The notes beneath the pieces were generated by a model that did not search any database, was not told the origin of the DNA, and saw only the letters and a program-made list of their open reading frames with translations. A program made the position numbers and the translations under genes. Of a DNA stretch of 39,062 nt, positions 6,030-34,868 are shown piece by piece. The DNA comes from Candidatus Yanofskybacteria bacterium CG10_big_fil_rev_8_21_14_0_10_36_16 (lineage in GTDB: Bacteria; Patescibacteriota; Minisyncoccia; 2-02-FULL-40-12; IGHO2-01-FULL-4-A): contig PCXQ01000002.1 in assembly GCA_002794035.1 (NCBI GenBank), positions 1 through 39,062 on the forward strand, written 5' to 3'. The number at the start of each line of letters is the position of its first letter. The stretch's first letter is position 1.

Positions 6030-6139
6030 ATATTTTTCCCCATGTTTTTAATGAACTAAATTTATATTAATTTACAATAAAACTCCCCAGGAATCAACCT
6101 CGGGAATTTTCAATATCGCCTTACTAAATCAATTAAAAA

Positions 6140-7084
6140 TTAAACCACAATACCCAAATCACTTAATTTGTCGCCATACTTCTTAATTATATATTTTTCT
6201 GGTGAGTCGGGATGAAACTCTAATCTCTCATCACAATACACAACCTTGCTCCCCTCTTTATAAGTGAGAGGGTTTTTAATTATTCTACCAAGCTGAATGT
6301 TTTTAGTTTTGCTTTCTACCACTCCTCCGATCCAATAAAAACTTAAAGCTCTCTCAAATAAAAAAGATATAGCCCTTGAAACCATGCTGGCTCTTTTGTG
6401 CTGGTTTGAATTAAAATTCCATTTTTGAACACAATCTAGAACCCACTTATTTTTCTCCTTAAACTCATCTACTATAGCTTCTTCTCTTACTAAAAGGGGT
6501 ATTAAACGAGAATATGTTTGTGCGTTATAAACACTTTTTAAATCAATATGCAATGATTTATCGGTTATATAATGATTTAAACATATTTTATCAGGTGCTA
6601 TTTTATCAGTTGGTTTTCGTCTAATCCCGACAAGAGACATTAAAACAACAATCAAAAACCTGGCAGTCCACATCCTGCCATGCTTCACAACAACCAAAAC
6701 ATCCAAATCACTCAACTCGTCTGTGCTTCCTGTAGCCAAAGAGCCGGATGCAAAAACAGCTTTGATAAACGGCAAAAAACTCATAAGAGAAACTGCGAGT
6801 CTTGTACGTTTTATTTTTTTATTTAAAATATTGTCTTTCTTTTTTCTTAGAGGAATTAAATATTCACGATTTGGTAAAAAATAATAATCGCCGTTTAAAT
6901 CGATTTTATTTTTTTTAATTAAATCAGCAAGAGAACGCCCCACCAAATCTTTTTTAGCAACAACACTTCTGGGAAAAGTTTTTATTAAATAATTAAAAAC
7001 CTCGTCCCTACTCAACGGATAATCAAAAATATCATAATAAATCAGTGTTGCCATTATAGATTTTTGTAAATCATCCATACTCAA
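6140..7084 (-). CDS. nucleotidyltransferase-domain protein
   Basis: GSLATGSTDELSDLDVLVVV (GS...DxD Pol-beta-type NTase motif) after a wHTH-like N-terminus, ATLIYYDIFDYPLSRDEV. Confidence 0.6.
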   Translation of the reverse strand: MSMDDLQKSIMATLIYYDIFDYPLSRDEVFNYLIKTFPRSVVAKKDLVGRSLADLIKKNKIDLNGDYYFLPNREYLIPLRKKKDNILNKKIKRTRLAVSLMSFLPFIKAVFASGSLATGSTDELSDLDVLVVVKHGRMWTARFLIVVLMSLVGIRRKPTDKIAPDKICLNHYITDKSLHIDLKSVYNAQTYSRLIPLLVREEAIVDEFKEKNKWVLDCVQKWNFNSNQHKRASMVSRAISFLFERALSFYWIGGVVESKTKNIQLGRIIKNPLTYKEGSKVVYCDERLEFHPDSPEKYIIKKYGDKLSDLGIVV

Positions 7085-7193: not shown

Positions 7194-7982
7194 TTATTCT
7201 AAGTAATCATCGTAATCATTATAATATTCCTTGTTATCTTCCTCAGTACCGCTTTCATTTTTCCAAAAATCTATACCCCTTATAAAACCATCTAAAAGTA
7301 TCTTATCTAATCTACTTCTATTCTCATTACCCAAAATAGCAGATATATCTGAATTCATCTCGCTTAATGAATGAACACTGGAGTACCTTTTAATAAATTC
7401 TCCGGCGAACATCAGCGCTTCCATCGTGGTCATATTAGTTTTGAAAATTTCTAAAATTTTTCTTTCTCTTTGTTCGTCATCTTGAATTCTTGATAATTCT
7501 TCCAAACTATTCATTATTTCTTGTCTTTGTTCATTGTTTTTTCTTTCATAAATCATTTCAAGAGCAATTAAAATTGCATCCAACCCTCTATTCATTCTTT
7601 CATGCTCTAGGTGGCCAGAATCAATCAATGATGCAACATCATCTGCATTATCATGCAAAATACCAATAACGAGCTGTCTGTTTATGAAAAATGGGCTTAT
7701 TGTCACACCTTCGCTCAGTTTGTTTTTTTCATATTCAGCTTGATCAATAAACTTAATAGAGAACCCCAAGGTTCCATTTGCCCAGCGATCCTTAATGTTG
7801 TCTACATAATAAGGCTTCGAAAACATACCCAAGCGTTGCGTTATTTGAGCATTAAAATTTCTTGTAACCAACTCGGGGTCGGCATTAAGAATTTCATCAT
7901 CGGTGTTTTGTGCAAAAACAGGTGCAAAAATAAAAACCAAGAACACAAGCACGGTTACCAAGATTCTAATTTTTTTCATCAT
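7194..7982 (-). CDS. hypothetical secreted protein
   Basis: 262-aa ORF with a signal peptide (ILVTVLVFLVFIFAPVFAQ) and an acidic C-terminus. No recognisable family. Divergent from the MoxR operon. Confidence 0.5.
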   Translation of the reverse strand: MMKKIRILVTVLVFLVFIFAPVFAQNTDDEILNADPELVTRNFNAQITQRLGMFSKPYYVDNIKDRWANGTLGFSIKFIDQAEYEKNKLSEGVTISPFFINRQLVIGILHDNADDVASLIDSGHLEHERMNRGLDAILIALEMIYERKNNEQRQEIMNSLEELSRIQDDEQRERKILEIFKTNMTTMEALMFAGEFIKRYSSVHSLSEMNSDISAILGNENRSRLDKILLDGFIRGIDFWKNESGTEEDNKEYYNDYDDYLE

Positions 7983-26672: not shown

Positions 26673-26822
26673 GTATTTTTGCTAAAAATTTGTCTTGTCT
26701 CAACGGCCATAGCGATTAAGACTTAACCGAATTTTTAACTGATTAATTAATTGTCCGCCGATTTGTTACGAACGTATTCGACCAATCGGCAAATAATAAA
26801 CTTAGGTATGTTTCTTATTATA

Positions 26823-26873
26823 ATTATATAACACAGAGATTCACAGACAAAATATTGACCCCGCCCTTGAAAG
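26823..26873 (-). promoter_or_regulatory. GC-rich box plus extended -10 promoter facing the 823-aa gene
   Basis: Minus strand reads CTTTCAAGGGCGGGGTCAATA-22 nt-TATATAAT, preceded by TGT. Confidence 0.4.
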
Positions 26874-26952
26874 TTTGTATCGTATACAATCGCACTGTGT
26901 TTATGTATTAAAATTCAACAATTTTAAAATTGAGAAGAAAGATTTAATATTC

Positions 26953-26993
26953 TCAAGAGCGGGGTTGACTTATCAACAATTAATTGAGAAGAT
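26953..26993 (+). promoter_or_regulatory. GC-rich box plus -35/-10 facing the MerR-like gene
   Basis: TCAAGAGCGGGG-TTGACT-17 nt-GAAGAT. An alternative -10, TATACT at 27012-27017, would give a near-leaderless mRNA. Confidence 0.35.
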
Positions 26994-27025
26994 AAATTTA
27001 TTAATCTTTAGTATACTTAGTACAA

Positions 27026-27280
27026 ATGGATAAAAAATACCTAACAGTAAAAGAAGTGGCAAAACTTGTCGGAGTAACCCCTCTGACAATTCGTAACTGG
27101 GATAAAGCCGGTAAACTTATTGCCCATAGAAATCCCGTAAATAATTATAGGGTATATAAAACGGCAGATGTAGATAAACTAGTAGAAGACATTGAGGGAA
27201 GCAAAGGAAAGACATTCCCCCGCCCGCCAAAAGAACCGCCCAAACCAAAAACAAAAAAACTAATGATTGAAGAATTATAA
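27026..27280 (+). CDS. MerR-type / excisionase-like HTH DNA-binding protein
   Basis: LTVKEVAKLVGVTPLTIRNWDKAGKLIAHRNPVNNYRVYKTADVDKL is a MerR N-terminal HTH with no effector domain. Pro/Lys-rich tail. Confidence 0.7.
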   Translation: MDKKYLTVKEVAKLVGVTPLTIRNWDKAGKLIAHRNPVNNYRVYKTADVDKLVEDIEGSKGKTFPRPPKEPPKPKTKKLMIEEL

Positions 27281-27306
27281 AAACGGCTCATAATGAACCG
27301 TTTTTT
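27279..27306. terminator. bidirectional hairpin
   Basis: aaAACGGcTCA-taa-TGAaCCGTTtttt, between convergent genes. Confidence 0.55.
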
Positions 27307-27311
27307 ATATG

Positions 27312-27563
27312 TTAAGCCAAAAAGAAGTTTTTCCAGATAGCTACAACACATGAAATTGTATAAATCAAAGTTAATGTAAAAACACCGAATTGCTTATTGC
27401 GCCATGCAGTTATAAACCAAAATGGTTCCGTGGTAAAAGTGAGCACAAAACCCCAAGGAGCCCATGGATTGCCGACAGCTATCATAAAAAAGCCGATACT
27501 CCCAATTATCGCAATATACCACTGGCCAAACTTTTCAAAAGACACAAAACACCTCTTCTTCAC
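27312..27563 (-). CDS. small Trp-rich 3-TM membrane protein
   Basis: 83-aa ORF with a GTG start that overlaps the upstream gene stop (GTGA). Three hydrophobic helices; FWFITAWRNKQFG. Confidence 0.5.
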   Translation of the reverse strand: MKKRCFVSFEKFGQWYIAIIGSIGFFMIAVGNPWAPWGFVLTFTTEPFWFITAWRNKQFGVFTLTLIYTISCVVAIWKNFFLA

Positions 27564-28144
27564 GTTGTTGGATAAAAACCATCAGGAATGGGCATTCTTA
27601 CCAAATGAGCCTCTTCATACGGACGCTCCACTCGATTATAAATTTTCCATGTTCTAAGTCTTGTTTCTTCATGGGGGACCACGATTTTAGGATCACTACC
27701 TAAAATCTGGTTTTTCTCTTCATCAGTTGTCGGCCTAACTTCAAACAAGCCATTAAACGGATCTCGGACAAAAGTTGCTAAATCTTTTGCTGTCACATTT
27801 TGTATGGGAATGACCAGCCATACATACTGATTCCTTTCAAGAAACCACTTTGCCTCACTTGCCACACCAAGACCCAAGCGGCCATCCAGAAAAGGCACTG
27901 CGACGCAATTTGTGCAATGGGGCAATACTTCTTCATAATAATAGTTCATTCCCTTATGGTTAGTACTGCTCTCTACCTTTCTTCGGGCCCATTTGTCATA
28001 TCCCACCTGATGATGAGGTTGATTAGGATTCTCAATAAAATCCGAGTTTGAGCCGAATAATGTTCCGACAATCAACTTAACAAAAGCTTTCTCAACTGGC
28101 TTATTATAGGTATTAACTGGATGCGCAAAATACATTTTTTTCAT
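27560..28144 (-). CDS. hypothetical protein (weak resemblance to nucleoside 2-deoxyribosyltransferase-like fold)
   Basis: 194-aa ORF with SD AGGAG. N-terminal MYFAHPVNTY and VPFLDGRLGLGVASEAKWFLERNQYVWLV recall the beta1 strand and the D..G..E patterns of that superfamily. This is pattern impression only. TGA stop. Confidence 0.5.
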   Translation of the reverse strand: MKKMYFAHPVNTYNKPVEKAFVKLIVGTLFGSNSDFIENPNQPHHQVGYDKWARRKVESSTNHKGMNYYYEEVLPHCTNCVAVPFLDGRLGLGVASEAKWFLERNQYVWLVIPIQNVTAKDLATFVRDPFNGLFEVRPTTDEEKNQILGSDPKIVVPHEETRLRTWKIYNRVERPYEEAHLVRMPIPDGFYPTT

Positions 28145-28246
28145 TTCTTTCTCCTATTTTCTTATTAAATATCTGTCACTAGGTTACAAGGGTAAAATTT
28201 TTTTTAAAGTTTACAAATTCATAAATTATTTTAAAGCAAAAACCTC

Positions 28247-28879
28247 TTATTTGAGGTTTTGATTTACATTTTCCCTAATTTTTTTAAAAATTTTATATGA
28301 TTGCATTGCGCCATTTAATGCTGTATGGGGATAAGGCTCTTGTTTAATACCTAGCCGCTTGGAAATTTTGCCGGATCTAACACTAAACTCTCTGGGATCA
28401 TATATTACATTTGGCTCAAGCAATTCTTGAACAGCCATAGAGCGGGTATCTAAACGCGTATAGTGAAAAAATCTTGATAAATCTTCATTCAAAATATCAC
28501 AACAAACAAAAGCTACCTGTAAAAAATTCCAATCAAAGAAAAAATTGTGTCCTGTTGGAATAATTTTTTCCTGCCATTGACCCAAAAATTCGAAAAGTTT
28601 TTTTAAAGCACAGTTCAAAGATACAGCATCGTTCCACTCCCCATTAAATGCGCGCTTTGGATATTCATTAATTAAATTAGAAATGCATCTCTCGGGATGT
28701 TGTGGGTTTATTTTTATTTCGAACTCACCCAACTTATCAAAGTTAGGTTGGTCAGCCACGACCATTCCTATTTCAATAATTTCATGCCACGGGACTAAAA
28801 CATTACCGACTTTTTTTAAAGGATCATGCCCAGTTGTTTCAATATCAATAAATCCAAAAATGTATTCTTCTTTGGCCAC
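28247..28879 (-). CDS. DEDDh 3'-5' exonuclease (DnaQ/RNase T-like)
   Basis: ExoI FIDIETTG, ExoII GHNFFFDWNFL, ExoIII HTALNGAMQ. GTG start with AGGAG 7 nt upstream. Confidence 0.8.
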   Translation of the reverse strand: MAKEEYIFGFIDIETTGHDPLKKVGNVLVPWHEIIEIGMVVADQPNFDKLGEFEIKINPQHPERCISNLINEYPKRAFNGEWNDAVSLNCALKKLFEFLGQWQEKIIPTGHNFFFDWNFLQVAFVCCDILNEDLSRFFHYTRLDTRSMAVQELLEPNVIYDPREFSVRSGKISKRLGIKQEPYPHTALNGAMQSYKIFKKIRENVNQNLK

Positions 28880-29002
28880 AATTTTCTCCTGTTTTTACTA
28901 AAGTGCTTAAACAAGCATAATATTATAAAAAACAAAAATCAACTGCCGATCTTTTTTATAAATTTTTTATTCAAAAATGTATAAAACTAAAATTAAAAAA
29001 TA

Positions 29003-29054
29003 AACCCCCGTTAAAACGGGGGTTTCTATCCCACACTCATACATGAGTGTGGGG
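29003..29054 (-). terminator. tandem hairpins after the ~940-aa gene
   Basis: AAACCCCCG-ttaaa-CGGGGGTTT and CCCACACTCAT-aca-TGAGTGTGGG. On the minus strand the second hairpin is followed by a T run. Confidence 0.7.
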
Positions 29055-29069
29055 GTTTATTTAAATTTT

Positions 29070-31880
29070 TTAAACCGCTTTCGGTAAAAACTTATTCCAG
29101 TTAAATGATTTAGGATTTGCAAACCAATCTCTCAAATAATCATGCGGTAACATCTGCACAAGAATCGGACCTTCTTCGGGCCCACCAGCGGGAATGCTCA
29201 CAAAGCACACACCGGTGTTGTTGGGAGGAAATCCTCCTGAAGAGCCGTACATATTGGTATGGACGCTTGCTGCGCACATAATATATGTTAAATGATTAAC
29301 TTCAGCCTTGGCATAAAAGTGTTTATCACCATAAAAAGTAACTGTGGCAGTTTTTAAGAGACCATATGAATCATCTCCTCGGGCCAAATCATTTCGTATA
29401 ACTGATTTTAGAAGGTCAGACCAGCTTGATAACTTAGCCGGCGTACCATGGACCCTCATGCCCCAAGGATAACCATCGGGCGCTTGGACCGTACCCCAGC
29501 CAAATGTCTCATTGCCAAATCTGGGCGCTCTAATTGATTTACTCAAAAAATCAGGATTGTTTTTAAGATATTTTTGCCAAAACGGAAGTTGGGCAAGTTT
29601 TTCCTGCAAGTGGCGTGCAATATAATCGCCTTCAAGATCTCTTTGGTCAAGGGTTTTAATACGGTGATTACCATTAGGAAAATTGTGAATAGCCAAATCT
29701 CGCGTATCCACCATGCTTTTGTGGAAATCACTAATGCCGCGAATATTCAAACCAGATTTAACAAATCTTTCTAAAACTGCGCTATAAAAATCGACATTCG
29801 GGTCGATGTGTCGTTCATAAACCTGCATCATCTGATGGAACGGAAAATCTTCGCCCCTAAAATAAAGCTGTGAAATACTTACGCGATTAATATCGCTAGT
29901 TATCTCACGAACAAGTTCATGATCCCCTTGCTCAGAGGCCCTTTGAAGGTCAGAGGTCATTTGCAATAACCACCGTTCAAAATGTAAAATTTTCATTCGC
30001 TCAGGATCTGGCCGATAGCGAGGATTAAACCACATGTCGCCATTGGTAGCATCATCCATCTCGGCAGTCATGTGCAACCCAATATCTTTTGCATTAATTA
30101 CACCCTCACGACGCATCAACTCAATAGCCGCCTCTGTAACGCCAAGGTGGATCTTCTGAGCGGGGTCCCAAATATACCTTTTGTCAGGAGCACCAAAGTG
30201 GTTATCTGTGTTTAAGAATACATTAATATACTCTGTTTTGGGATAAGGAAAAGCAAAATTTTGATTATAAAACGGCCTGTCCTTATCCAATCTAGAAATT
30301 GGCAAGGATATGGTGTTGAGAATACCGTTACTCCAAGAAAGCAATAAAACTCCAGGCTTAAACATGGGGTTGTTCACCAGCTTTTGAACCTTGTGAACTT
30401 CCCTAATATTATTTCTAAATTCATCACGCAAAAAAACGTCATCAAGACAGCTGGGAGCAACAGCAACAAACTTTGTAACAGGCTTCCCATCTATGGAATC
30501 TTCTCTGCCCACCAATCGATGGTCTAAAGCAAATGGATGGCAAATAACAGTGAGATCAGCCAAGGTATCAGCAAACACCTCTGCGCCATAGGAATCGCCA
30601 TAACTAGCAAGCAACGAATCAGTAACCCTCTCGTGCTTAGGAATATGCGCTTTAACAATATGTTTATGAAGTTTAAAATATGCACTCCCCTGGCTAATAA
30701 CTTTAGCGTTAGGGATTGCTTCCTCAAACTTTTTAACAACAAAAGCTGTTATCTTGCGATTGAAGTATCTATAGTGACGATTATGTATGTTGCTTTGAAT
30801 TGTTCTAGCTTTTTTTCTGGTTAAGCGCATAACTTCGCTATCCCAATGTCTTATTTCACTAGTGTCATTGTCTTTCCTTGCTTTGGAAAAGCGCGACTTG
30901 GCCATGTTCAGCTCAGCTTCAATTTTCTTTTCTTTAACAATTTTTAAATACCTGCACTGATAATATGAAGCTGCCCTGATTAATTCCTCTTCTTTAAGGC
31001 CGAACATTATATACACAGGCCCCGGAAATTCTGGACCCTTATTTCTCGGCCTATGAGAAATTTTATGTAAAGCATCAATAATCTCATTAAACTTTTCTTC
31101 TAATGTCTGATAAATTAAATCATCAGTTATATTTCCTCTCAAAATATCTATAACTTCTTCCCGATATTCCTCAGGAAATCTTTTGGGGTTTGCTTCTAGT
31201 CCTGATACCTCAGCACGATAAGCCGCTAAGGGTCCCGCGGTCTTTTTTGACCAAAGGTCTAAGATGTTAACAAAAATCACAGCCTTAGCCCCGCGATTTC
31301 TAGCATCAGCAAAAGCTCGTCTTGTCGTATTACTTTCAATGTCGGGATACTTAATGCCGATAAGAGAACCATTAATAATAGATACCTGACCTTCTGGTTC
31401 CTCAGAAATAACGAAGGGGTTACTATAGGAATTATCAGGAAATTCATAATTCTCCAATCCTTCAGGAAGGTCGTCCAAAGAAGCAAAACGACCCATACCA
31501 GCCTTAAACTTAACAATAGATGATGATGTATTGCTGGTATAACCCTTTTTGGACTTCACTCTTTTCCTAATAATGCTTTTTGGTATATGAGGATGTGTTT
31601 CTTCAAATTTAGAAAGCATATCATTACCAACAGCTCTCCAAAGAAGCTTATCTACATCAGGTGTCCAGATTAATTCATCAAGGCGACTACTAATCACCTT
31701 TTGAGTCATAGTTGAACCGGCTAACTTATCGTGAAATTCTTCATTAATAATTTGGCAAATCTTGGCCAAACCACCATCCTGATTAAGCAATTGCTGGACC
31801 AGTTCTTTGCAACGCTTCTCTAATCCTGAGATTTTCCATATCTCTCTTTTCCTGTTTTTTTGATTAACTTCCTCAGACAT
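29070..31880 (-). CDS. large uncharacterised protein: Myb/SANT-like N-terminus, degenerate plus intact metallophosphoesterase-like halves
   Basis: Start placed at MSEEVNQ (31880), where AAGGAGG lies 5 nt upstream; the track start at 31898 has no SD. WTPDVDKLLWRAVGND is SANT/Myb-like. C-terminal half carries ordered MPE-like motifs NTDNHFG, DDATNGDMW, NGNHR, YGDKH, ASVH. In the N-terminal half the corresponding positions are non-catalytic (IINGSLIG, FVNILDLW). Confidence 0.6.
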   Translation of the reverse strand: MSEEVNQKNRKREIWKISGLEKRCKELVQQLLNQDGGLAKICQIINEEFHDKLAGSTMTQKVISSRLDELIWTPDVDKLLWRAVGNDMLSKFEETHPHIPKSIIRKRVKSKKGYTSNTSSSIVKFKAGMGRFASLDDLPEGLENYEFPDNSYSNPFVISEEPEGQVSIINGSLIGIKYPDIESNTTRRAFADARNRGAKAVIFVNILDLWSKKTAGPLAAYRAEVSGLEANPKRFPEEYREEVIDILRGNITDDLIYQTLEEKFNEIIDALHKISHRPRNKGPEFPGPVYIMFGLKEEELIRAASYYQCRYLKIVKEKKIEAELNMAKSRFSKARKDNDTSEIRHWDSEVMRLTRKKARTIQSNIHNRHYRYFNRKITAFVVKKFEEAIPNAKVISQGSAYFKLHKHIVKAHIPKHERVTDSLLASYGDSYGAEVFADTLADLTVICHPFALDHRLVGREDSIDGKPVTKFVAVAPSCLDDVFLRDEFRNNIREVHKVQKLVNNPMFKPGVLLLSWSNGILNTISLPISRLDKDRPFYNQNFAFPYPKTEYINVFLNTDNHFGAPDKRYIWDPAQKIHLGVTEAAIELMRREGVINAKDIGLHMTAEMDDATNGDMWFNPRYRPDPERMKILHFERWLLQMTSDLQRASEQGDHELVREITSDINRVSISQLYFRGEDFPFHQMMQVYERHIDPNVDFYSAVLERFVKSGLNIRGISDFHKSMVDTRDLAIHNFPNGNHRIKTLDQRDLEGDYIARHLQEKLAQLPFWQKYLKNNPDFLSKSIRAPRFGNETFGWGTVQAPDGYPWGMRVHGTPAKLSSWSDLLKSVIRNDLARGDDSYGLLKTATVTFYGDKHFYAKAEVNHLTYIMCAASVHTNMYGSSGGFPPNNTGVCFVSIPAGGPEEGPILVQMLPHDYLRDWFANPKSFNWNKFLPKAV

Positions 31881-31987
31881 AAAACCTCCTTTTCTCATAT
31901 AAGAATTTTAAATGTTCTTGCATTAATACTATCTTTATAAAAAACTGTAACAACTTGTCTTTAATTTTTTTGCGTTGTGTTACAACC

Positions 31988-32016
31988 AAAAAAACCGCTC
32001 TTATGAGCGGTTTTTT
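31988..32016. terminator. hairpin separating the small-peptide gene from the ~940-aa gene
   Basis: aaaaaaCCGCTC-ttat-GAGCGGtttttt. Confidence 0.7.
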
Positions 32017-32077
32017 GAATATAGATATCCACAATTAAATTTATTGCGACATTTATAGGTTATATAAAAAGAAAGAT

Positions 32078-32106
32078 CCGCTGTTCCTGTGCATCAGGAA
32101 CAGCGG
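32078..32106 (-). terminator. 12-bp perfect hairpin terminator of the small-peptide transcript
   Basis: CCGCTGTTCCTG-tgcat-CAGGAACAGCGG, followed on the minus strand by atctttcttttt. Confidence 0.7.
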
Positions 32107-32134
32107 TTGAGAGATCGGTCAAATCGACCTCTCT

Positions 32135-32233
32135 CTATTGCTCCGGCCCACAGGCCGGATGATCCTTTAGCGACGGTGCGAGCACCATCGCTAACAGAAT
32201 CAGAAACACTGGAATAATCAGAACGTACTGCAT
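32135..32233 (-). CDS. 32-aa hydrophobic peptide (candidate small membrane protein or toxin)
   Basis: TTGTAA-17 nt-TATAAT (32268-32263) with an extended TG, SD AAGGGAGG, and ATG at 32233. Translation: MQYVLIIPVFLILLAMVLAPSLKDHPACGPEQ, TAG stop. Local GC is about 50%, clearly above the surroundings. Confidence 0.5.
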   Translation of the reverse strand: MQYVLIIPVFLILLAMVLAPSLKDHPACGPEQ

Positions 32234-32362
32234 GGCAGAACCTCCCTTACCTAACTATTTATATTATAACACAAAATATGTATTATTACAAGTGCTGCAA
32301 ATATCGCCTCCCGAGTTAATTATACGAAAATAGAGCTTATTTTTTAAGTTGTTGAATAGAAT

Positions 32363-32381
32363 TGCGGGGGCACATGGACTC
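32363..32381 (-). repeat. 19-nt copy of a tRNA 3' end (T-loop end + T stem + acceptor + discriminator)
   Basis: Plus strand tgcgggggcacAtggactc is 18/19 identical to 32483-32501. Confidence 0.7.
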
Positions 32382-32484
32382 CCTTCGACTCATTGCATTC
32401 GCTCAGGATAAACTTCTCGTCCTATCACAAAAAAAACGGCAAGTTCAGCATAAATCTAAAGCTTGCACTGAGTTTGCAAAAGTG

Positions 32485-32509
32485 CGGGGGCACCTGGACT
32501 CGAACCAGG
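32485..32509 (-). pseudogene. orphan tRNA 3' fragment (Trp-like): T arm + acceptor 3' strand + discriminator G
   Basis: Minus strand reads CCTGG-TTCGAGT-CCAGG-TGCCCCC-G. No D arm or anticodon arm lies upstream of it. Confidence 0.7.
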
Positions 32510-32646
32510 AAGTTCGGTTTTGTCCCGATTTTTCTTCCCCGCCTTAGCGGGGTTAGAAAATCAAGGATCCACGATTTTGTAATCTTGCTTCAGTAAGAAC
32601 AAAATCAGGAGAGACTAGTGATTTGCTTCACCTACCCAAATTTTTG

Positions 32647-32718
32647 CGGGAGTAGTAGGACTCGAACCTACAGTCCTGGTTTTGGAGACCAGTGGTTTGC
32701 CAATTAACCGATACTCCC
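32647..32718 (-). tRNA. trnW: tRNA-Trp (anticodon CCA)
   Basis: GGGAGTA TC GGTT AATTGGCA AACC A CTGGT CTCCAAA ACCAG GACT GTAGG TTCGAGT CCTAC TACTCCC G folds as a full cloverleaf. CCA is not encoded. Confidence 0.93.
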
Positions 32719-32740
32719 ACACAAAGCAAAAACTTGGGCG

Positions 32741-32762
32741 GGCAAGTTAAGCTTATACCCCC
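32741..32762 (-). pseudogene. orphan tRNA 5' fragment (Trp-like acceptor 5' strand + D-arm remnant)
   Basis: Minus strand GGGGGTATAAGCTTAACTTGCC. GGGGGTA pairs 7/7 (one G-U) with the TGCCCCC of the orphan 3' fragments, and it resembles the 5' region of the intact tRNA-Trp. Confidence 0.45.
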
Positions 32763-32896
32763 AAGAAAGCAAATTTTAAAACTTTACTCGTTTGCTCAAG
32801 TTCAAGATAAAATCAAGATTTGGAACGAAGCGTACTTAAAAGTACGTTGAGTTTCAAAGCGACGATTTTAACAAAGAAATTGGTCGAACCAGAAAG

Positions 32897-32943
32897 GCTA
32901 ATTTCGGAATAAGCCCTTCCGTATTTGGGCTTCCGAAATTAGC
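32897..32943 (-). terminator. 13-bp hairpin downstream of rpmG
   Basis: GCTAATTTCGGAA...TTCCGAAATTAGC. Confidence 0.55.
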
Positions 32944-32956
32944 GAGTAGTTTTAAT

Positions 32957-33115
32957 TTATTTTTTGCTTTCCTTATGAGTTGTGTGCTTCCTGCACCACT
33001 TGCAGAATTTTTTAAATTCCAGCTTTCTTTCAACTAATTTTTTGTTCTTGGTTGTATAGTAGTTGAATCTTTTGCAGTCTCCACACTTCATTTTTAACAA
33101 ATTATCTTGTGACAT
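32957..33115 (-). CDS. rpmG: 50S ribosomal protein L33
   Basis: Not in ORF track (52 aa). [52 protein letters not shown] has the CxxC...CxxC L33 pattern. Confidence 0.9.
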
Positions 33116-33198
33116 TATTTTAATTTCTGATCTCTGGTTTCTTGTTTATGATTTTATACCAGCTACAAAATACCAGCTACCAGCTACTAAACTTATGA

Positions 33199-33270
33199 GC
33201 CGACGGTGAGAATTGAACTCACGACCTACTCCTTACCATGGAGTTGCTCTGCCTCTGAGCTACGTCGGCT
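33199..33270 (-). tRNA. trnT: tRNA-Thr (anticodon GGT)
   Basis: GCCGACG TA GCTC AGAGGCA GAGC A ACTCC ATGGTAA GGAGT AGGTC GTGAG TTCAATT CTCAC CGTCGGC T. Confidence 0.92.
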
Positions 33271-33436
33271 TTAGCTAGCTCCTCTTGATTTAATTGTGAG
33301 CCAGGAGGCGATGAAAGACAAGGGTTTGGCTTTCATCCTCAATTTTATAAATTCTTTGTCTTTAAGTCGATCATGTGCCGTTAAAAAATTGAGCAGAACA
33401 TACCTAATGCCAGTTCAAATCTTTCTGTTTTCATTT

Positions 33437-33480
33437 CTTATCTCAGGATAATATTTTTTTAAATATTATCCTGAGATAAG
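33437..33480. repeat. 20-bp perfect inverted repeat (hairpin, 4-nt loop)
   Basis: CTTATCTCAGGATAATATTT-tttt-AAATATTATCCTGAGATAAG, directly abutting the tRNA-Tyr 3' fragment copy. Confidence 0.85.
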
Positions 33481-33482
33481 AT

Positions 33483-33495
33483 TGTGGGCCGGGAG
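33483..33495 (-). repeat. 13-nt duplicate of the tRNA-Tyr 3' end
   Basis: tgtgggccgggag is identical to 33662-33674 (acceptor 3' strand and start of the T stem, plus 2 trailing nt). Confidence 0.7.
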
Positions 33496-33499
33496 TGGA

Positions 33500-33660
33500 G
33501 ACAAAGTGAACTGCTTCACTTTGTCCAGAATTTTAACGTAGCGTCCTCGTGGAGTGTTTAAAAATTCTGTCGAACCCTGTCGAGCAAAGCTCGACTTATT
33601 CGAATATTTCCATATTCTATTGTCTTAAATTAATTGGATTTTAATCCAATTAATTTGAGA
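33500..33660. repeat. train of four further hairpins between tRNA-Tyr and its 3' duplicate
   Basis: 33500-33525: 11-bp perfect. 33526-33569: about 11 bp with a 1-nt bulge. 33579-33595: 7-bp perfect. 33623-33660: 14-bp perfect palindrome extending to about 18 bp. Confidence 0.8.
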
Positions 33661-33663
33661 CTG

Positions 33664-33747
33664 TGGGCCGGGAGGGATTCGAACCCCCGTAGGTCTAAGA
33701 CCGCGTGGTTTACAGCCACGTGCGATTGGCCACTCCGCCACCGACCC
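33664..33747 (-). tRNA. trnY: tRNA-Tyr (anticodon GTA), class II with long variable arm
   Basis: GGGTCGG TG GCG GAGTGGCCAAT CGC A CGTGG CTGTAAA CCACG CGGTCTTAGACCTAC GGGGG TTCGAAT CCCTC CCGGCCC A. Confidence 0.92.
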
Positions 33748-33756
33748 ATATGATAC

Positions 33757-34006
33757 TTATTTTAAAAGTTTTTTAAATGCCTCACCACCTTTATATTTTT
33801 TAATTTGTCTCTAGTGTCTTAAAGCCACTTCTTTGCTATTATGCTGTTCATAAAATTCTTAATATTAACGGCCGACGATTTTTCGTTGATTTAGTAGCGC
33901 CACTGTTATGTTTTTCAATTCTATTTTTTATATTACTTGTTGAGCCAATAAAATATTTACTATCTTTTTTACTTTTTAATACATAAATATACCATTTTTT
34001 ATCCAT
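33757..34006 (-). pseudogene. decayed GIY-YIG (URI-domain, COG2827-like) endonuclease gene
   Basis: MDKKWYIYVLKSKKDSKYFIGSTSNIKNRIEKHNSGATKSTKNRRPLILRIL* (TGA at 33850-33848). The +1 frame then continues EFYEQHNSKEVALRH*RQIKKYKGGEAFKKLLK*. That makes one frameshift and one in-frame TAG at the conserved Glu position. Confidence 0.75.
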
Positions 34007-34037
34007 AAATCCTCAGACCGCCCTGCTTATAGAGGGA

Positions 34038-34089
34038 TGCGATTGGCCACTTTTTAACCCCGCCAAGGGCGGTGGCCGCCACCGACCCA
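34038..34089 (-). pseudogene. tRNA-Tyr 5' fragment (nt 1-13 and 15-27) split by a ~24-nt GC-rich hairpin insertion
   Basis: Minus strand reads GGGTCGGTGGCGG-[ccaccgcccttggcggggttaaaaa]-GTGGCCAATCGCA. Both blocks are identical to the intact tRNA-Tyr, and the sequence diverges afterwards. Confidence 0.75.
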
Positions 34090-34163
34090 ATTTTTAATAA
34101 TATACCCTACTTTAACCCAAAAAACAAGAAAAACGGTGAATTTACCGTTTTAAACATATCATA

Positions 34164-34239
34164 TGGAGCCGCCTCGCAGATTCGAACTGCGGACCTTCAC
34201 TTTACAAAAGTGTTGCTCTAACCACTGAGCTAAGGCGGC
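34164..34239 (-). tRNA. trnT: tRNA-Thr (anticodon TGT), CCA encoded
   Basis: GCCGCCT TA GCTC AGTGGTTA GAGC A ACACT TTTGTAA AGTGA AGGTC CGCAG TTCGAAT CTGCG AGGCGGC T CCA. Confidence 0.9.
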
Positions 34240-34253
34240 CTAAGATTAATGTG

Positions 34254-34868
34254 TTAAGTTAGCTTGCCCTCAGCTTCTTTCATCTTCTTCTCTATCTCAG
34301 AATCACCGGGGCTTAGCTTTAGCATTGCCTTAAAAGATTCTACAGCATCACTCCAGTTTTTAAGCTTAAAATACACCAACCCTAATTCTCTGTAAAAATT
34401 AGGGTTCTTAGGATTTCGAGCAATTTCCATAATAAGCTCTTGCTCCCTCTGTCTCAACTTCTCTTCCTTGCTTAATACAATAATTGGCTTCTCCTCAATC
34501 AAATCAAAATTACCGTTTTGGGCTTCTAATTTTTCTGTTCGTCTCTTGTGGTTAATAGAAGCGGATTTAATTTTTGTAATTAAATCATGAATAAATCTAT
34601 CAATTTTTAAAGAGATTATTCTTAATCGTCTTAATATTTTTTCAGAAAATGAAAAATACGCTTTCTTGTGTTCTGTAAAATCCACCTTCCCTACTGATTG
34701 TAATAATTCTGGGAAAAGTTCCCCAAAAAAACTGCTAGGAGCATCACCTGCCCCACTTTCTATTATTTCCGGATTAAGTTTTTTGAGATAGCTAAACTTA
34801 CGACCCACAATAAAAAGTATGGCCGTTAGTGATACTGCAAAAATTATCAGAGGAGCTATTAGATACAT
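34254..34868 (-). CDS. membrane-anchored coiled-coil/TPR protein
   Basis: N-terminal TM and a C-terminal TPR-like FYRELGLVYFKLKNWSDAVESFKAMLKLSPGD. Confidence 0.5.
   Translation of the reverse strand: MYLIAPLIIFAVSLTAILFIVGRKFSYLKKLNPEIIESGAGDAPSSFFGELFPELLQSVGKVDFTEHKKAYFSFSEKILRRLRIISLKIDRFIHDLITKIKSASINHKRRTEKLEAQNGNFDLIEEKPIIVLSKEEKLRQREQELIMEIARNPKNPNFYRELGLVYFKLKNWSDAVESFKAMLKLSPGDSEIEKKMKEAEGKLT

What the first reader, a model, noticed from the sequence alone, without database searches (positions are those of the whole stretch)
32363..32762. Intact tRNA-Trp nested between 5' and 3' remnants of a second Trp-like tRNA (two 3' copies)
Reading the minus strand in order, the elements are as follows. 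First, GGGGGTATAAGCTTAACTTGCC (32762->32741), which resembles a tRNA-Trp acceptor 5' strand plus D region. Then 22 nt of spacer and the intact tRNA-Trp (32718->32647). Then two long hairpins (about 32610->32568 and 32562->32527). Then a perfect T arm + acceptor 3' strand + discriminator, CCTGG TTCGAGT CCAGG TGCCCCC G (32509->32485). A second 19-nt copy, 18/19 identical, lies at 32381->32363. GGGGGTA pairs with TGCCCCC at 7/7 positions, and discriminator G is the Trp identity base, so the orphan pieces look like the two ends of an older tRNA-Trp whose middle is gone. The orphan 3' ends are not identical to the resident tRNA-Trp 3' end. This is therefore not a simple integrase att duplication of the current gene. 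It looks more like serial replacement of the tRNA by incoming DNA that carried its own copy.
Basis: partly seen in the sequence, partly recalled or inferred. Interest (0 to 1): 0.65.

Follow-up and report, generated by a model that had tools for sequence, protein, structure and literature searches.

The report
Old tRNA-Trp split by replacement cassette
In this groundwater Patescibacteria (CPR) chromosome, an older tRNA-Trp gene was split by a small gene-less insertion that carries its own working tRNA-Trp, and an even older tRNA end lies further downstream; this is a miniature version of the known habit of mobile DNA to hit tRNA genes and restore them.

Summary
ARAGORN and Rfam call one intact tRNA-Trp (32647-32718, minus strand). 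A profile built from 73 related tRNA-Trp genes finds a second, partial match at 32522-32484, covering tRNA positions 34-73 (E=7e-7). The 19-nt second copy (32381-32363) is a real repeat. It matches the first orphan and the tRNA-Trp of loci L005/L016 at 18/19 positions. The 5' piece (32762-32741) is weaker: no profile hit, but a unique acceptor-compatible GGGGGTATA (chance about 0.001).

The two orphan halves match a tRNA-Trp allele that is intact in relatives (L073, L006, L017, L022). The resident gene matches other relatives (L001, L036).

A 218-nt insert lies between the halves. It has two parts: the resident tRNA on a leader-trailer inverted repeat, and an 88-nt palindromic element.
- The left arm of the inverted repeat is 17/17 identical in L005/L016. 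There it is also wedged between older tRNA-Trp remnants.
- The palindromic element belongs to a family with at least 120 metagenome copies. These often sit between a gene and a diverged duplicate of that gene's end.

Seven of 218 tRNAs in related loci are similarly "stalked", and all seven are nested in cognate tRNA remnants. The enzyme responsible is unknown.

The parts
32741..32762 (-). 5' remnant of an older tRNA-Trp: acceptor 5' strand GGGGGTA, U8A9, and a D region with a deletion of about 6 nt. It runs to about position 28.
   Evidence: Sequence. GGGGGYRTA occurs only once in the window, giving about 0.001 expected in this spacer. Local alignment to L073/L022/L025 tRNA-Trp 5' parts. No nhmmer hit, so support is moderate.
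32726..32742 (-). Left arm (leader) of the inverted repeat that carries the resident tRNA: CCCGCCCAAGTTTTTGC.
   Evidence: 17/17 identical just upstream of tRNA-Trp in L005 (4181-4197) and L016 (2081-2097). In the MFE fold it pairs with the trailer arm while the cloverleaf is kept. Leader/trailer duplex energy is -27.3 kcal/mol, against a 1% control quantile of -23.3.
32647..32718 (-). Resident, intact tRNA-Trp (CCA), the presumed functional gene.
   Evidence: ARAGORN. Rfam RF00005, 63.2 bits. nhmmer full length, E=1.1e-16. Closest relatives are L001 and L036.
32631..32647 (-). Right arm (trailer) of the inverted repeat: GCAAAAATTTGGGTAGG. It overlaps the discriminator base.
   Evidence: Fold. 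Duplex energy. Homologous to CGCAAAAATTTAGGCGGGC after tRNA-Trp in L005/L016.
32523..32610 (-). 88-nt palindromic element with terminal inverted repeats (TIRs): TCCTGATTTT ... ATCGTGGATCCTTGAT ... AAAAATCGGGA.
   Evidence: Fold z = -4.8. Motif matches to L002 and L017 copies. The family has at least 120 loci in metagenome contigs. Its right end directly abuts the displaced tRNA half, as in L002/L017 (rpmG) and the nested tRNA of L017.
32485..32522 (-). 3' half of the older tRNA-Trp (positions 34-73): rest of the anticodon loop, ACCGA, variable ACTT, perfect T arm, acceptor 3' strand TGCCCCC, and G73.
   Evidence: nhmmer E=7.1e-7, profile 34-72. 19/20 identical to the L073 tRNA-Trp 3' end. 26/28 blastn match to L073.
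32429..32466 (-). Hairpin followed by a T8 run between the two 3' orphans. It may be the terminator that came with the older gene.
   Evidence: Read from the sequence. Not called by the terminator scan. The interval's fold is not unusual, z = -1.4. Weak evidence.
32363..32381 (-). Second, oldest 3' orphan: GAGTCCATGTGCCCCCGCA, from G57 in the T loop to G73 plus CA.
   Evidence: Direct-repeat family D1. 18/19 identical to L005/L016 tRNA-Trp 3' ends. nhmmer alone gives E=3.1. It has the same T-loop start point as the displaced ends in L005/L016.

Best explanation
The locus is a stack of scars from successive DNA insertions, each of which brought its own tRNA-Trp.

The oldest gene survives only as its last 19 nt (32381-32363), cut in the T loop.

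The next gene has a GGGGGTA/TGCCCCC acceptor, an allele still intact in related Paceibacteria. It was later split in its anticodon stem/loop (about positions 28 to 34) by a 218-nt ORF-less insertion. That insertion has two parts: (i) a complete tRNA-Trp mounted on a 17-19-bp leader/trailer inverted repeat, and (ii) an 88-nt palindromic, MITE-like element (a small repeat with inverted ends) whose right end abuts the displaced 3' half.

Only the inner gene can work. The outer pieces lack about 5 nt at the junction and part of the D loop, and they are decaying.

These insertions survive because they complement the gene they destroy. In these small genomes a tRNA gene is probably single-copy.

Shown:
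- the anatomy;
- the two distinct alleles;
- the homology of both insert components to elements at other loci, where they are flanked the same way;
- the existence of clean loci in relatives.

Inferred:
- the order of events;
- horizontal origin of the cassette;
- movement in trans by an unidentified recombinase or nuclease. The geometry (gene body, restoring end, element, displaced end, with both copies starting at the same position) fits site-specific, integrase-like insertion of small circles best.
For: Anatomy of the window:
- One intact tRNA plus a highly significant 3' half.
- Old and resident alleles match different relatives.
- The 17/17 left arm is shared with L005/L016. There the same stalked cassette sits between ...TAGCGGTCTCCAA (an old anticodon-arm piece) and GATTCCCTCATCCCCCGCA (an old T-loop-to-3'-end piece).

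Recurrence in related loci:
- Leader-trailer stalks beyond the 1% control occur in 7 of 218 tRNAs. All 7 are nested in remnants of a cognate tRNA: L055, L080 and L017 (Thr-GGT), L057 (Thr-TGT), and L005, L016 and the window (Trp).
- Orphan tRNA ends are strongly enriched across 80 related loci. There are 36 orphan 3' ends and 15 orphan 5' ends at <=2/20 mismatches, against 0 with reversed patterns.

The palindromic element:
- It is abundant, with at least 120 metagenome loci.
- In 14 of 75 copies it is flanked by diverged direct duplicates of a gene end (control about 1%). In L120 all six differences are synonymous, so the two copies are separate functional alleles rather than a decayed target duplication.

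Clean state and assembly:
- Clean single-gene loci exist in relatives with the same synteny (L094, L095).
- Independent contigs reproduce the junctions.
Against: - No recombinase, transposase or integrase is present in the window. The mobility mechanism is therefore not demonstrated.
- The 5' remnant is not detected by profile search.
- No closely related genome with the uninterrupted old allele at this exact locus was recovered. The nearest relative's contig (L093) ends just past rpmG.
- The join across the resident tRNA is not confirmed by the Logan contigs.
- Insertion positions within the outer tRNAs vary (25/26, 28-34, 34/35, 40/41, 56/57). This argues against one simple site-specific enzyme.
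Confidence: 0.7

Rival explanations
1. The orphans are classical attR-type scars. Tyrosine-integrase elements integrated into the 3' part of tRNA-Trp one after another. Each carried a restoring 3' end, and the islands were later deleted, leaving only the displaced ends.
For: The second orphan (G57 to the 3' end plus CA) has exactly the extent expected of a T-loop-class att identity block. Displaced tRNA fragments are the known signature of integrated elements (PMC4383910, PMC9897764). The 26.7-32 kb stretch just downstream carries a MerR/excisionase-like HTH, an exonuclease and orphan genes, and may be an island remnant.
Against: No integrase was found. No copy of the resident or orphan 3' end lies at any distal position in the window. 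3'-end integration cannot produce a 5' remnant upstream of the resident gene. Nor can it produce a 3' half that starts at position 34 next to a palindromic element. The insert carries a whole tRNA, not just a restoring end.
Confidence: 0.13
2. Local tandem duplication of the cell's own tRNA-Trp, followed by decay of the extra copies, with no incoming DNA.
For: Tandem arrangements do occur in relatives. L050 has two identical [rpmG 3' end + tRNA-Trp + element] units.
Against: Resident and orphan alleles differ by compensatory changes in both the acceptor and T stems. They match different relatives best. The orphan T arm and acceptor are still perfectly paired, which is unexpected after the long in-place divergence this model requires. 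The left arm of the cassette is 17/17 identical in other genera.
Confidence: 0.08
3. The outer pieces are functional at the RNA level. Either they are an intron-containing or split tRNA whose 'intron' holds a second tRNA, or they act as processing or termination signals for the tRNA-Trp transcript.
For: In L017 the outer tRNA-Thr exons rejoin perfectly around a stalked inner tRNA. The stalk would bring the exon ends together. The orphan T arm here is perfect.
Against: In the window the joined exons lack the 5' strand of the anticodon stem and part of the D arm, so they cannot form a tRNA. Five or six of the seven nested outer tRNAs are degenerate. Precise deletion of the palindromic element never restores a tRNA in 99 constructs. 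There is no group I intron or other Rfam hit here.
Confidence: 0.05
4. Chance similarity or a metagenome assembly chimera across conserved tRNA sequence.
For: Unitig breaks fall inside the tRNAs, where many community members share k-mers. The 5' piece alone is only moderately significant.
Against: The 3' half has E=7e-7. The 19-mer repeat and all orphan/flank junctions lie within single error-free contigs of even depth. The same architecture recurs in unrelated assemblies.
Confidence: 0.04

Closest known systems
Displaced tRNA gene fragments at integrated genomic islands or prophages (attL/attR; the Islander model)
   Same: Mobile DNA targets a tRNA gene, restores a working copy, and leaves the displaced fragment in direct orientation next to it. 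Serial events give several fragments.
   Different: Here the inserts are 100-220 nt with no ORF and no integrase nearby. The insert carries a whole tRNA rather than only the restoring 3' end. A 5' fragment is left as well. The fragments are diverged alleles rather than an identity block.
Palindromic repeat elements that invade genes: Rickettsia palindromic elements, REP/REPIN/BIME, Correia/NEMIS-type MITEs, yeast mitochondrial GC clusters (from general knowledge; PMC3733652, PMC3184786 and PMC4478555 listed)
   Same: An element of about 66-93 bp with terminal inverted repeats and a hairpin-forming body, in many copies, found inside or next to conserved genes including RNA genes.
   Different: These copies are frequently bracketed by a gene end and a diverged duplicate of it (14/75). 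No short target-site duplication, RAYT (REP-associated transposase) or other transposase has been identified. The loop of the element can carry a tRNA (L017).
Free-standing GIY-YIG homing endonucleases in tRNA clusters (phage T4 SegB; PMC2330249, PMC13096335)
   Same: A GIY-YIG gene sits among tRNA genes. At the neighbouring tRNA-Tyr of this window, a truncated GIY-YIG ORF lies between a 5' tRNA-Tyr fragment and the intact gene. SegB drives preferential inheritance or amplification of a tRNA region.
   Different: No GIY-YIG gene accompanies the tRNA-Trp insert. Homing by gene conversion does not normally leave partial duplicates.
C-terminal displacement in rhs/CDI toxin loci (PMC2935791)
   Same: An incoming gene end replaces the resident end, which persists downstream as an orphan. 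Repeated events stack the orphans.
   Different: That system involves protein toxin-immunity modules, a different selective logic, and no palindromic element.
Disrupted archaeal tRNA genes (multiple or ectopic BHB introns, split and permuted tRNAs; PMC3978253, PMC4090602)
   Same: tRNA sequence interrupted at non-canonical positions. Complementary leader/trailer stalks bring the halves together.
   Different: This is a bacterial lineage. The outer gene here cannot be reconstituted, and no BHB (bulge-helix-bulge) motif or splicing endonuclease has been shown.

Membership tests
Integrase-type island with displaced tRNA fragment (attL/attR) | Intact tRNA plus a displaced fragment of the same gene in direct orientation | tested here: met
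Integrase-type island with displaced tRNA fragment (attL/attR) | Identity block shared by the regenerated tRNA and the displaced fragment | tested here: not met
   The fragments are 68% identical to the resident 3' end over 22 nt. They are 91% identical to each other.
Integrase-type island with displaced tRNA fragment (attL/attR) | Tyrosine (or serine) integrase gene and kb-sized cargo between tRNA and fragment | tested here: not met
   Only 124 and 103 nt lie between the pieces. No integrase domain was found in any ORF of the window.
Group I intron in a tRNA gene | Conserved catalytic core (Rfam Intron_gpI) inside the anticodon loop, with exons that rejoin into a tRNA | tested here: not met
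   No Rfam hit in 31800-34400 even at E<=10. The exons do not rejoin. True group I introns were seen only in relatives.
MITE / REPIN-like palindromic repeat | Terminal inverted repeats and a stable hairpin body | tested here: met
   TCCTGAT...ATCGGGA termini; fold z = -4.8.
MITE / REPIN-like palindromic repeat | Many dispersed copies | tested here: met
   At least 120 metagenome loci, with several contigs holding 2-3 copies. Only one copy is in this window.
MITE / REPIN-like palindromic repeat | Short target-site duplication and a cognate transposase (or RAYT) | tested here: inconclusive
   Flanks show long, diverged duplications in 14/75 copies instead of short target-site duplications. No transposase is in the window. 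Whole genomes were not searched.
R1 'T-loop element' seen in relatives (antisense T arm, three-way junction, sense tRNA 3' end) | Match to covariance model R1 | tested here: not met
   About 30 hits in the 80 related loci. None in the window with default filters. With filters off, only trivial T-arm matches of <=9.8 bits.
Free-standing GIY-YIG homing cassette | GIY-YIG ORF adjacent to the duplicated tRNA pieces | tested here: not met
   None at tRNA-Trp. A truncated one (Pfam PF01541, 3.4e-12, positions 1-49 of 78) lies at tRNA-Tyr, 33848-34006.
Split / intron-containing functional tRNA | Exons that together give a complete cloverleaf | tested here: not met
   The 5' piece ends at about position 28 with a D-loop deletion. 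The 3' piece starts at 34.

The most novel reading that the evidence does not exclude
Three entities recur in these loci: the stalked tRNA cassettes, the TCCCGAT...ATCGGGA palindromic element, and the R1 T-loop element of relatives. R1 carries a segment antisense to its own target tRNA next to a covarying three-way junction.

Together they may form an undescribed class of ORF-less, gene-end-restoring mini-integrative elements in CPR bacteria. They would be moved in trans, possibly by a nucleic-acid-guided recombinase. They would continually overwrite tRNA, rpmG, topA, ligase and synthetase gene ends with alleles from other lineages.
Probability: 0.3. Interest if true: 0.8.

Novelty: new variant of a known kind. 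Interest (0 to 1): 0.55.

Why it matters
tRNA genes are the classic landing sites of mobile DNA, but the known agents are kb-sized elements with integrases.

Here the same 'hit and restore' logic is carried out by inserts of 100-220 nt without any gene. These sit in bacteria with tiny genomes and probably single-copy tRNAs. The displaced pieces record several rounds of replacement by foreign alleles.

If general, this has three consequences:
- Core translation genes of CPR bacteria are exchanged piecemeal between lineages.
- tRNA gene counts and phylogenies in these genomes are confounded by orphans and nested genes.
- An unidentified recombination machinery recognises small palindromic elements.

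It also gives annotators a concrete pattern to flag (stalked tRNA + cognate fragments).

Tried and rejected
- Rfam at gathering and at E<=10 found nothing beyond the four tRNAs, and no tmRNA, intron or ribozyme in 31800-34400.
- Exact-protein look-ups of the window's L33 and the 942-aa protein: not on record.
- I suspected a tmRNA or permuted tmRNA because of the GGGG...T-arm ends. I rejected it: there is no G3-U70, there is an intact tRNA inside, and ARAGORN and Rfam are negative.
- R1 T-loop element: I built it from relatives and expected it between the tRNA and the orphans. It is absent from the window. A by-eye resemblance downstream of tRNA-Tyr (33614-33483) scores only 8.4 bits.
- Viral-contig scans for the cassette arm and the palindrome centre gave only chance hits in coding DNA without tRNAs. 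This gives no support for a phage source.
- The apparent paralogy between 32755-32741 and 32452-32438 (13/15) is within chance for a 2.6-kb region, so I dropped it.
- Deleting the palindromic element precisely never regenerates a tRNA (0/99). It is not a simple intron.
- The 12-nt identity of the element's right end to the ...FLKSGQGR... codons of a GIY-YIG gene in L019 may be chance, so I did not pursue it.
- I searched the window for a distal copy of the resident or orphan 3' end that would mark an island border. None was found.
- Four literature searches aimed at this arrangement found no description of it in CPR bacteria.

Full report
**Setting.**
The window is a bacterial chromosome segment of about 36% GC. 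It encodes GroEL, S2, a short EF-Ts, RF2, L25, L10, L7/L12, DnaB, RecR and UvrC. Its L33 is closest to L33 of Patescibacteria of the Paceibacteria group (Yanofsky-, Niyogi-, Azam- and Giovannonibacteria), at 92% identity at most. Public runs holding the sequence are groundwater and aquifer metagenomes.

On the minus strand, a 2.3-kb stretch with few ORFs (34254 to 31898) holds the following genes in order:
- tRNA-Thr(TGT)
- tRNA-Tyr
- tRNA-Thr(GGT)
- rpmG (33115-32957)
- tRNA-Trp

The same gene order recurs in many of 80 related loci fetched through L33.

**Checking the observation.**
- The intact tRNA-Trp is 32718-32647.
- The T arm + acceptor + G73 piece at 32509-32485 is unique in the window.
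- It forms a direct-repeat family with 32381-32360 (91%) and, more distantly, with the resident 3' end (68%).

A profile made from 73 distinct tRNA-Trp genes of the related loci aligns positions 34-72 to 32522-32484 with E=7.1e-7. This orphan is therefore a 39-nt 3' half beginning in the anticodon loop, not just a T arm.

The second copy is too short to score on its own (E=3.1). It is 18/19 identical to the first orphan and to the 3' end of the tRNA-Trp of L005/L016. It begins at G57.

The 5' piece is the weak member. It has no profile hit. However, an acceptor-compatible GGGGGYRTA occurs once in 78 kb of both strands, against 0.40 expected. That is about 0.001 for the 240-nt spacer. Its continuation resembles the D arm of L022/L025 tRNA-Trp with a 6-nt gap.

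The generic Rfam tRNA model sees none of the orphans. A lineage-specific profile is needed.

Independent Logan contigs of run X1 reproduce 31800-32702 and 32673-33234 without a single difference, at depth 23-32. Unitig breaks fall only inside tRNAs.

**What lies between the halves.**
The 218 nt from 32740 to 32523 contain two recognisable units.

*First unit: the stalked tRNA.* The resident tRNA sits on an inverted repeat. The leader CCCGCCCAAGTTTTTGC (32742-32726) pairs with the trailer GCAAAAATTTGGGTAGG (32647-31). This gives a 17-19-bp stalk under an intact cloverleaf.

The leader is 17/17 identical immediately upstream of the tRNA-Trp genes of L005 and L016, and their trailers are homologous. 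In those two loci the cassette is also wedged between remnants of an older tRNA-Trp. On the left is ...TAGCGGTCTCCAA, an anticodon-arm piece. On the right is GATTCCCTCATCCCCCGCA, running from the T loop to the 3' end.

- termini TCCTGAT...ATCGGGA
- centre ATCGTGGATCCTTGAT
- fold z = -4.8

Copies in L002 and L017 sit at the 3' end of rpmG, between the complete gene and a diverged duplicate of its last ~47 nt. In L017 another copy carries a whole tRNA-Thr in its loop and splits an outer tRNA-Thr at position 24/25.

In every case the right terminus ...ATCGGGA abuts the displaced gene piece. It does so here too (ATCGGGA|CAAAACCGAACTTCCTGG...).

**Two alleles, not one.**
The orphan halves align best with the intact tRNA-Trp of L073, L022, L017 and L006. 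The resident gene aligns best with L001 and L036. The differences in the acceptor and T stems are compensatory, and the orphan's stems still pair perfectly. The two sequences therefore evolved as working genes in different lineages before being brought together.

**Generality.**
Across the 80 loci plus the window, I counted copies of 20-nt tRNA termini lying outside called tRNAs, at <=2 mismatches. There are 36 for 3' ends and 15 for 5' ends, against 0 with reversed patterns. Some of the paired ends are tRNAs with group I introns that ARAGORN misses.

Leader-trailer stalks stronger than the 1% control occur in 7 of 218 tRNAs. All seven are nested in, or flanked by, remnants of a tRNA of the same isotype.

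Relatives with the same S2-Ts-TPR-tRNA-L33 synteny have a clean locus: rpmG, about 30 nt, tRNA-Trp, terminator (L094; also L095).

In 14 of 75 unique copies the two flanks are diverged direct duplicates ending exactly at the element, against about 1% in controls. These include topA and synthetase-like 5' ends and a ligase-like 3' end. In L120 all six nucleotide differences between the copies are synonymous. That excludes in-place decay of a target duplication. It points to the juxtaposition of two alleles.

**Mechanism.**
What is shown is an architecture: gene body, restoring end or whole gene, small palindromic element, displaced end. This is the geometry produced when a circular element carrying a copy of the target's end recombines at a fixed point of the target, as integrases do (PMC4383910; PMC9897764). 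Here it occurs at a scale of 100-200 nt and without an enzyme gene in the element or the window.

I infer three things:
- The cassettes are non-autonomous and are moved in trans.
- tRNA genes are preferred targets.
- Only insertions that bring a working cognate gene survive.

The varied insertion positions and the absence of an identified enzyme keep this part uncertain.

The order of events follows from nesting. The 19-nt end is oldest. The split gene is intermediate. The inner gene is newest.

**Rivals.**
- *Pure integrase scars* explain the second orphan well. They do not explain the 5' remnant, the position-34 junction or the whole-gene insert. No distal att copy or integrase is present.
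- *Local duplication* is contradicted by the allele affinities.
- *An RNA-level split or intron-containing tRNA* is contradicted by the missing nucleotides. Deleting the element never restores a tRNA. L017, with a perfect outer gene, shows the insertion can be very recent.
- *Artefact* is unlikely given the contig evidence and the recurrence elsewhere.

**Comparison and novelty.**
Displaced tRNA fragments are well known. Palindromic elements inside genes are known (RPE, REP/REPIN). Stacking of orphaned gene ends is known from rhs/CDI loci. I did not find a description of ORF-less cassettes carrying an entire tRNA inserted into the cognate tRNA of CPR bacteria, linked to a palindromic element family that brackets gene-end duplicates (literature searches). 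I rate it a new variant of a known kind.

Noticed in passing
window 33295-34089 (minus strand): The neighbouring tRNA-Tyr shows the same pattern as tRNA-Trp. A 5' tRNA-Tyr-like fragment (34089 to about 34012) has a 25-nt hairpin (CCACCGCCCTTGGCGGGGTTAAAAA) inserted in its D loop and ends in the variable arm. Next comes a truncated, frameshifted GIY-YIG ORF (34006-33848, Pfam 3.4e-12), then the intact tRNA-Tyr. Two extra copies of its 3' end follow (33495-33483, 13/13; 33307-33295, 11/13). L074 has the same fragment-hairpin-GIY-YIG-tRNA-Tyr layout.
   Followed up: partly
Related loci, e.g. L065:2652-2752, L013:3408-3510, L014:4366-4506, 6128-6246 and 7857-7975, L073:3784-3906: A conserved ~100-150-nt element lies right after tRNAs of at least six isotypes. 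Its order is: antisense copy of the T loop and T stem, a three-way junction with invariant CGGAGC / GAGNCGGGGTCG / GTGAC, then a sense copy of the tRNA from C56 to the 3' end. Covariance model R1 finds about 30 copies in 80 loci. 88.5% of cells are paired, against 64% when shuffled. 27/28 pairs show compensatory changes, and there is a conserved G-U. There is no Rfam match. It is absent from the window. It may be a guide-bearing mobile RNA/DNA element.
   Followed up: partly
L096-L175 (metagenome contigs); L002:3599-3689; L017:531-657: The TCCCGAT...ATCGGGA palindromic element (66-93 bp) is very common in groundwater metagenomes. It often sits between a gene and a diverged duplicate of that gene's first or last 35-57 nt (topA, a ligase-like gene, rpmG, a synthetase-like gene). 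Differences between the copies are largely synonymous or conservative. Tandem arrays of [tRNA 5' fragment + element] occur in L150 and L174.
   Followed up: partly
L017:40-290 (minus), L080:3290-3511, L055:1540-1700, L057:1569-1750: Complete tRNA genes are nested inside tRNA genes of the same isotype, on perfect 14-20-bp flanking inverted repeats. In L017 the outer tRNA-Thr(GGT) exons rejoin perfectly at position 24/25.
   Followed up: partly
L002:3144-3396, L007:2956-3264, L012:1310-1619 and 1646-1892, L016:1091-1342, L061:3545-3821, L073:3504-3756: tRNA-Thr(GGT) genes, and one tRNA-Tyr, are interrupted in the anticodon loop by ~180-240-nt sequences. By eye these carry group I intron core motifs (e.g. 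AAGATATAGTC). ARAGORN does not call these genes.
   Followed up: no
L050:4390-5040: An exact 336-bp tandem duplication of [rpmG 3' end + tRNA-Trp (GGGGGTA type) + downstream element]. It is followed by the 3' part of a different tRNA-Trp (nhmmer positions 48-72, E=0.005).
   Followed up: no
window 26700-32300: In many bacteria secE-nusG-rplK-rplA follow the rpmG region (general knowledge). Directly downstream of tRNA-Trp this window instead has a 32-aa membrane peptide, a 942-aa protein without any Pfam/PHROG match, an RNase T-like exonuclease, unknown ORFs and a MerR/excisionase-like HTH (27026-27280). rplJ-rplL come only at 20983-19949. This may be an island remnant. No integrase and no att copy were found.
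   Followed up: partly
window 32897-32943; L093:525-555: A strong hairpin lies just after rpmG (13-bp perfect stem with an inner GCCC/GGGC stem, z = -5.4). Its start is shared with the closest relative, L093. In L093 the modules between tRNA-Tyr and tRNA-Thr(GGT) are arranged differently and include a 51-aa ORF, so this spacer region is highly fluid.
   Followed up: no
L094:2300-2580: A tandem duplication of an upstream block ends in a 13-nt 5' fragment of tRNA-Thr(TGT) (GGCCGGCATAGCT), about 170 nt before the intact gene. It is a 5'-side orphan in an otherwise compact relative.
   Followed up: no
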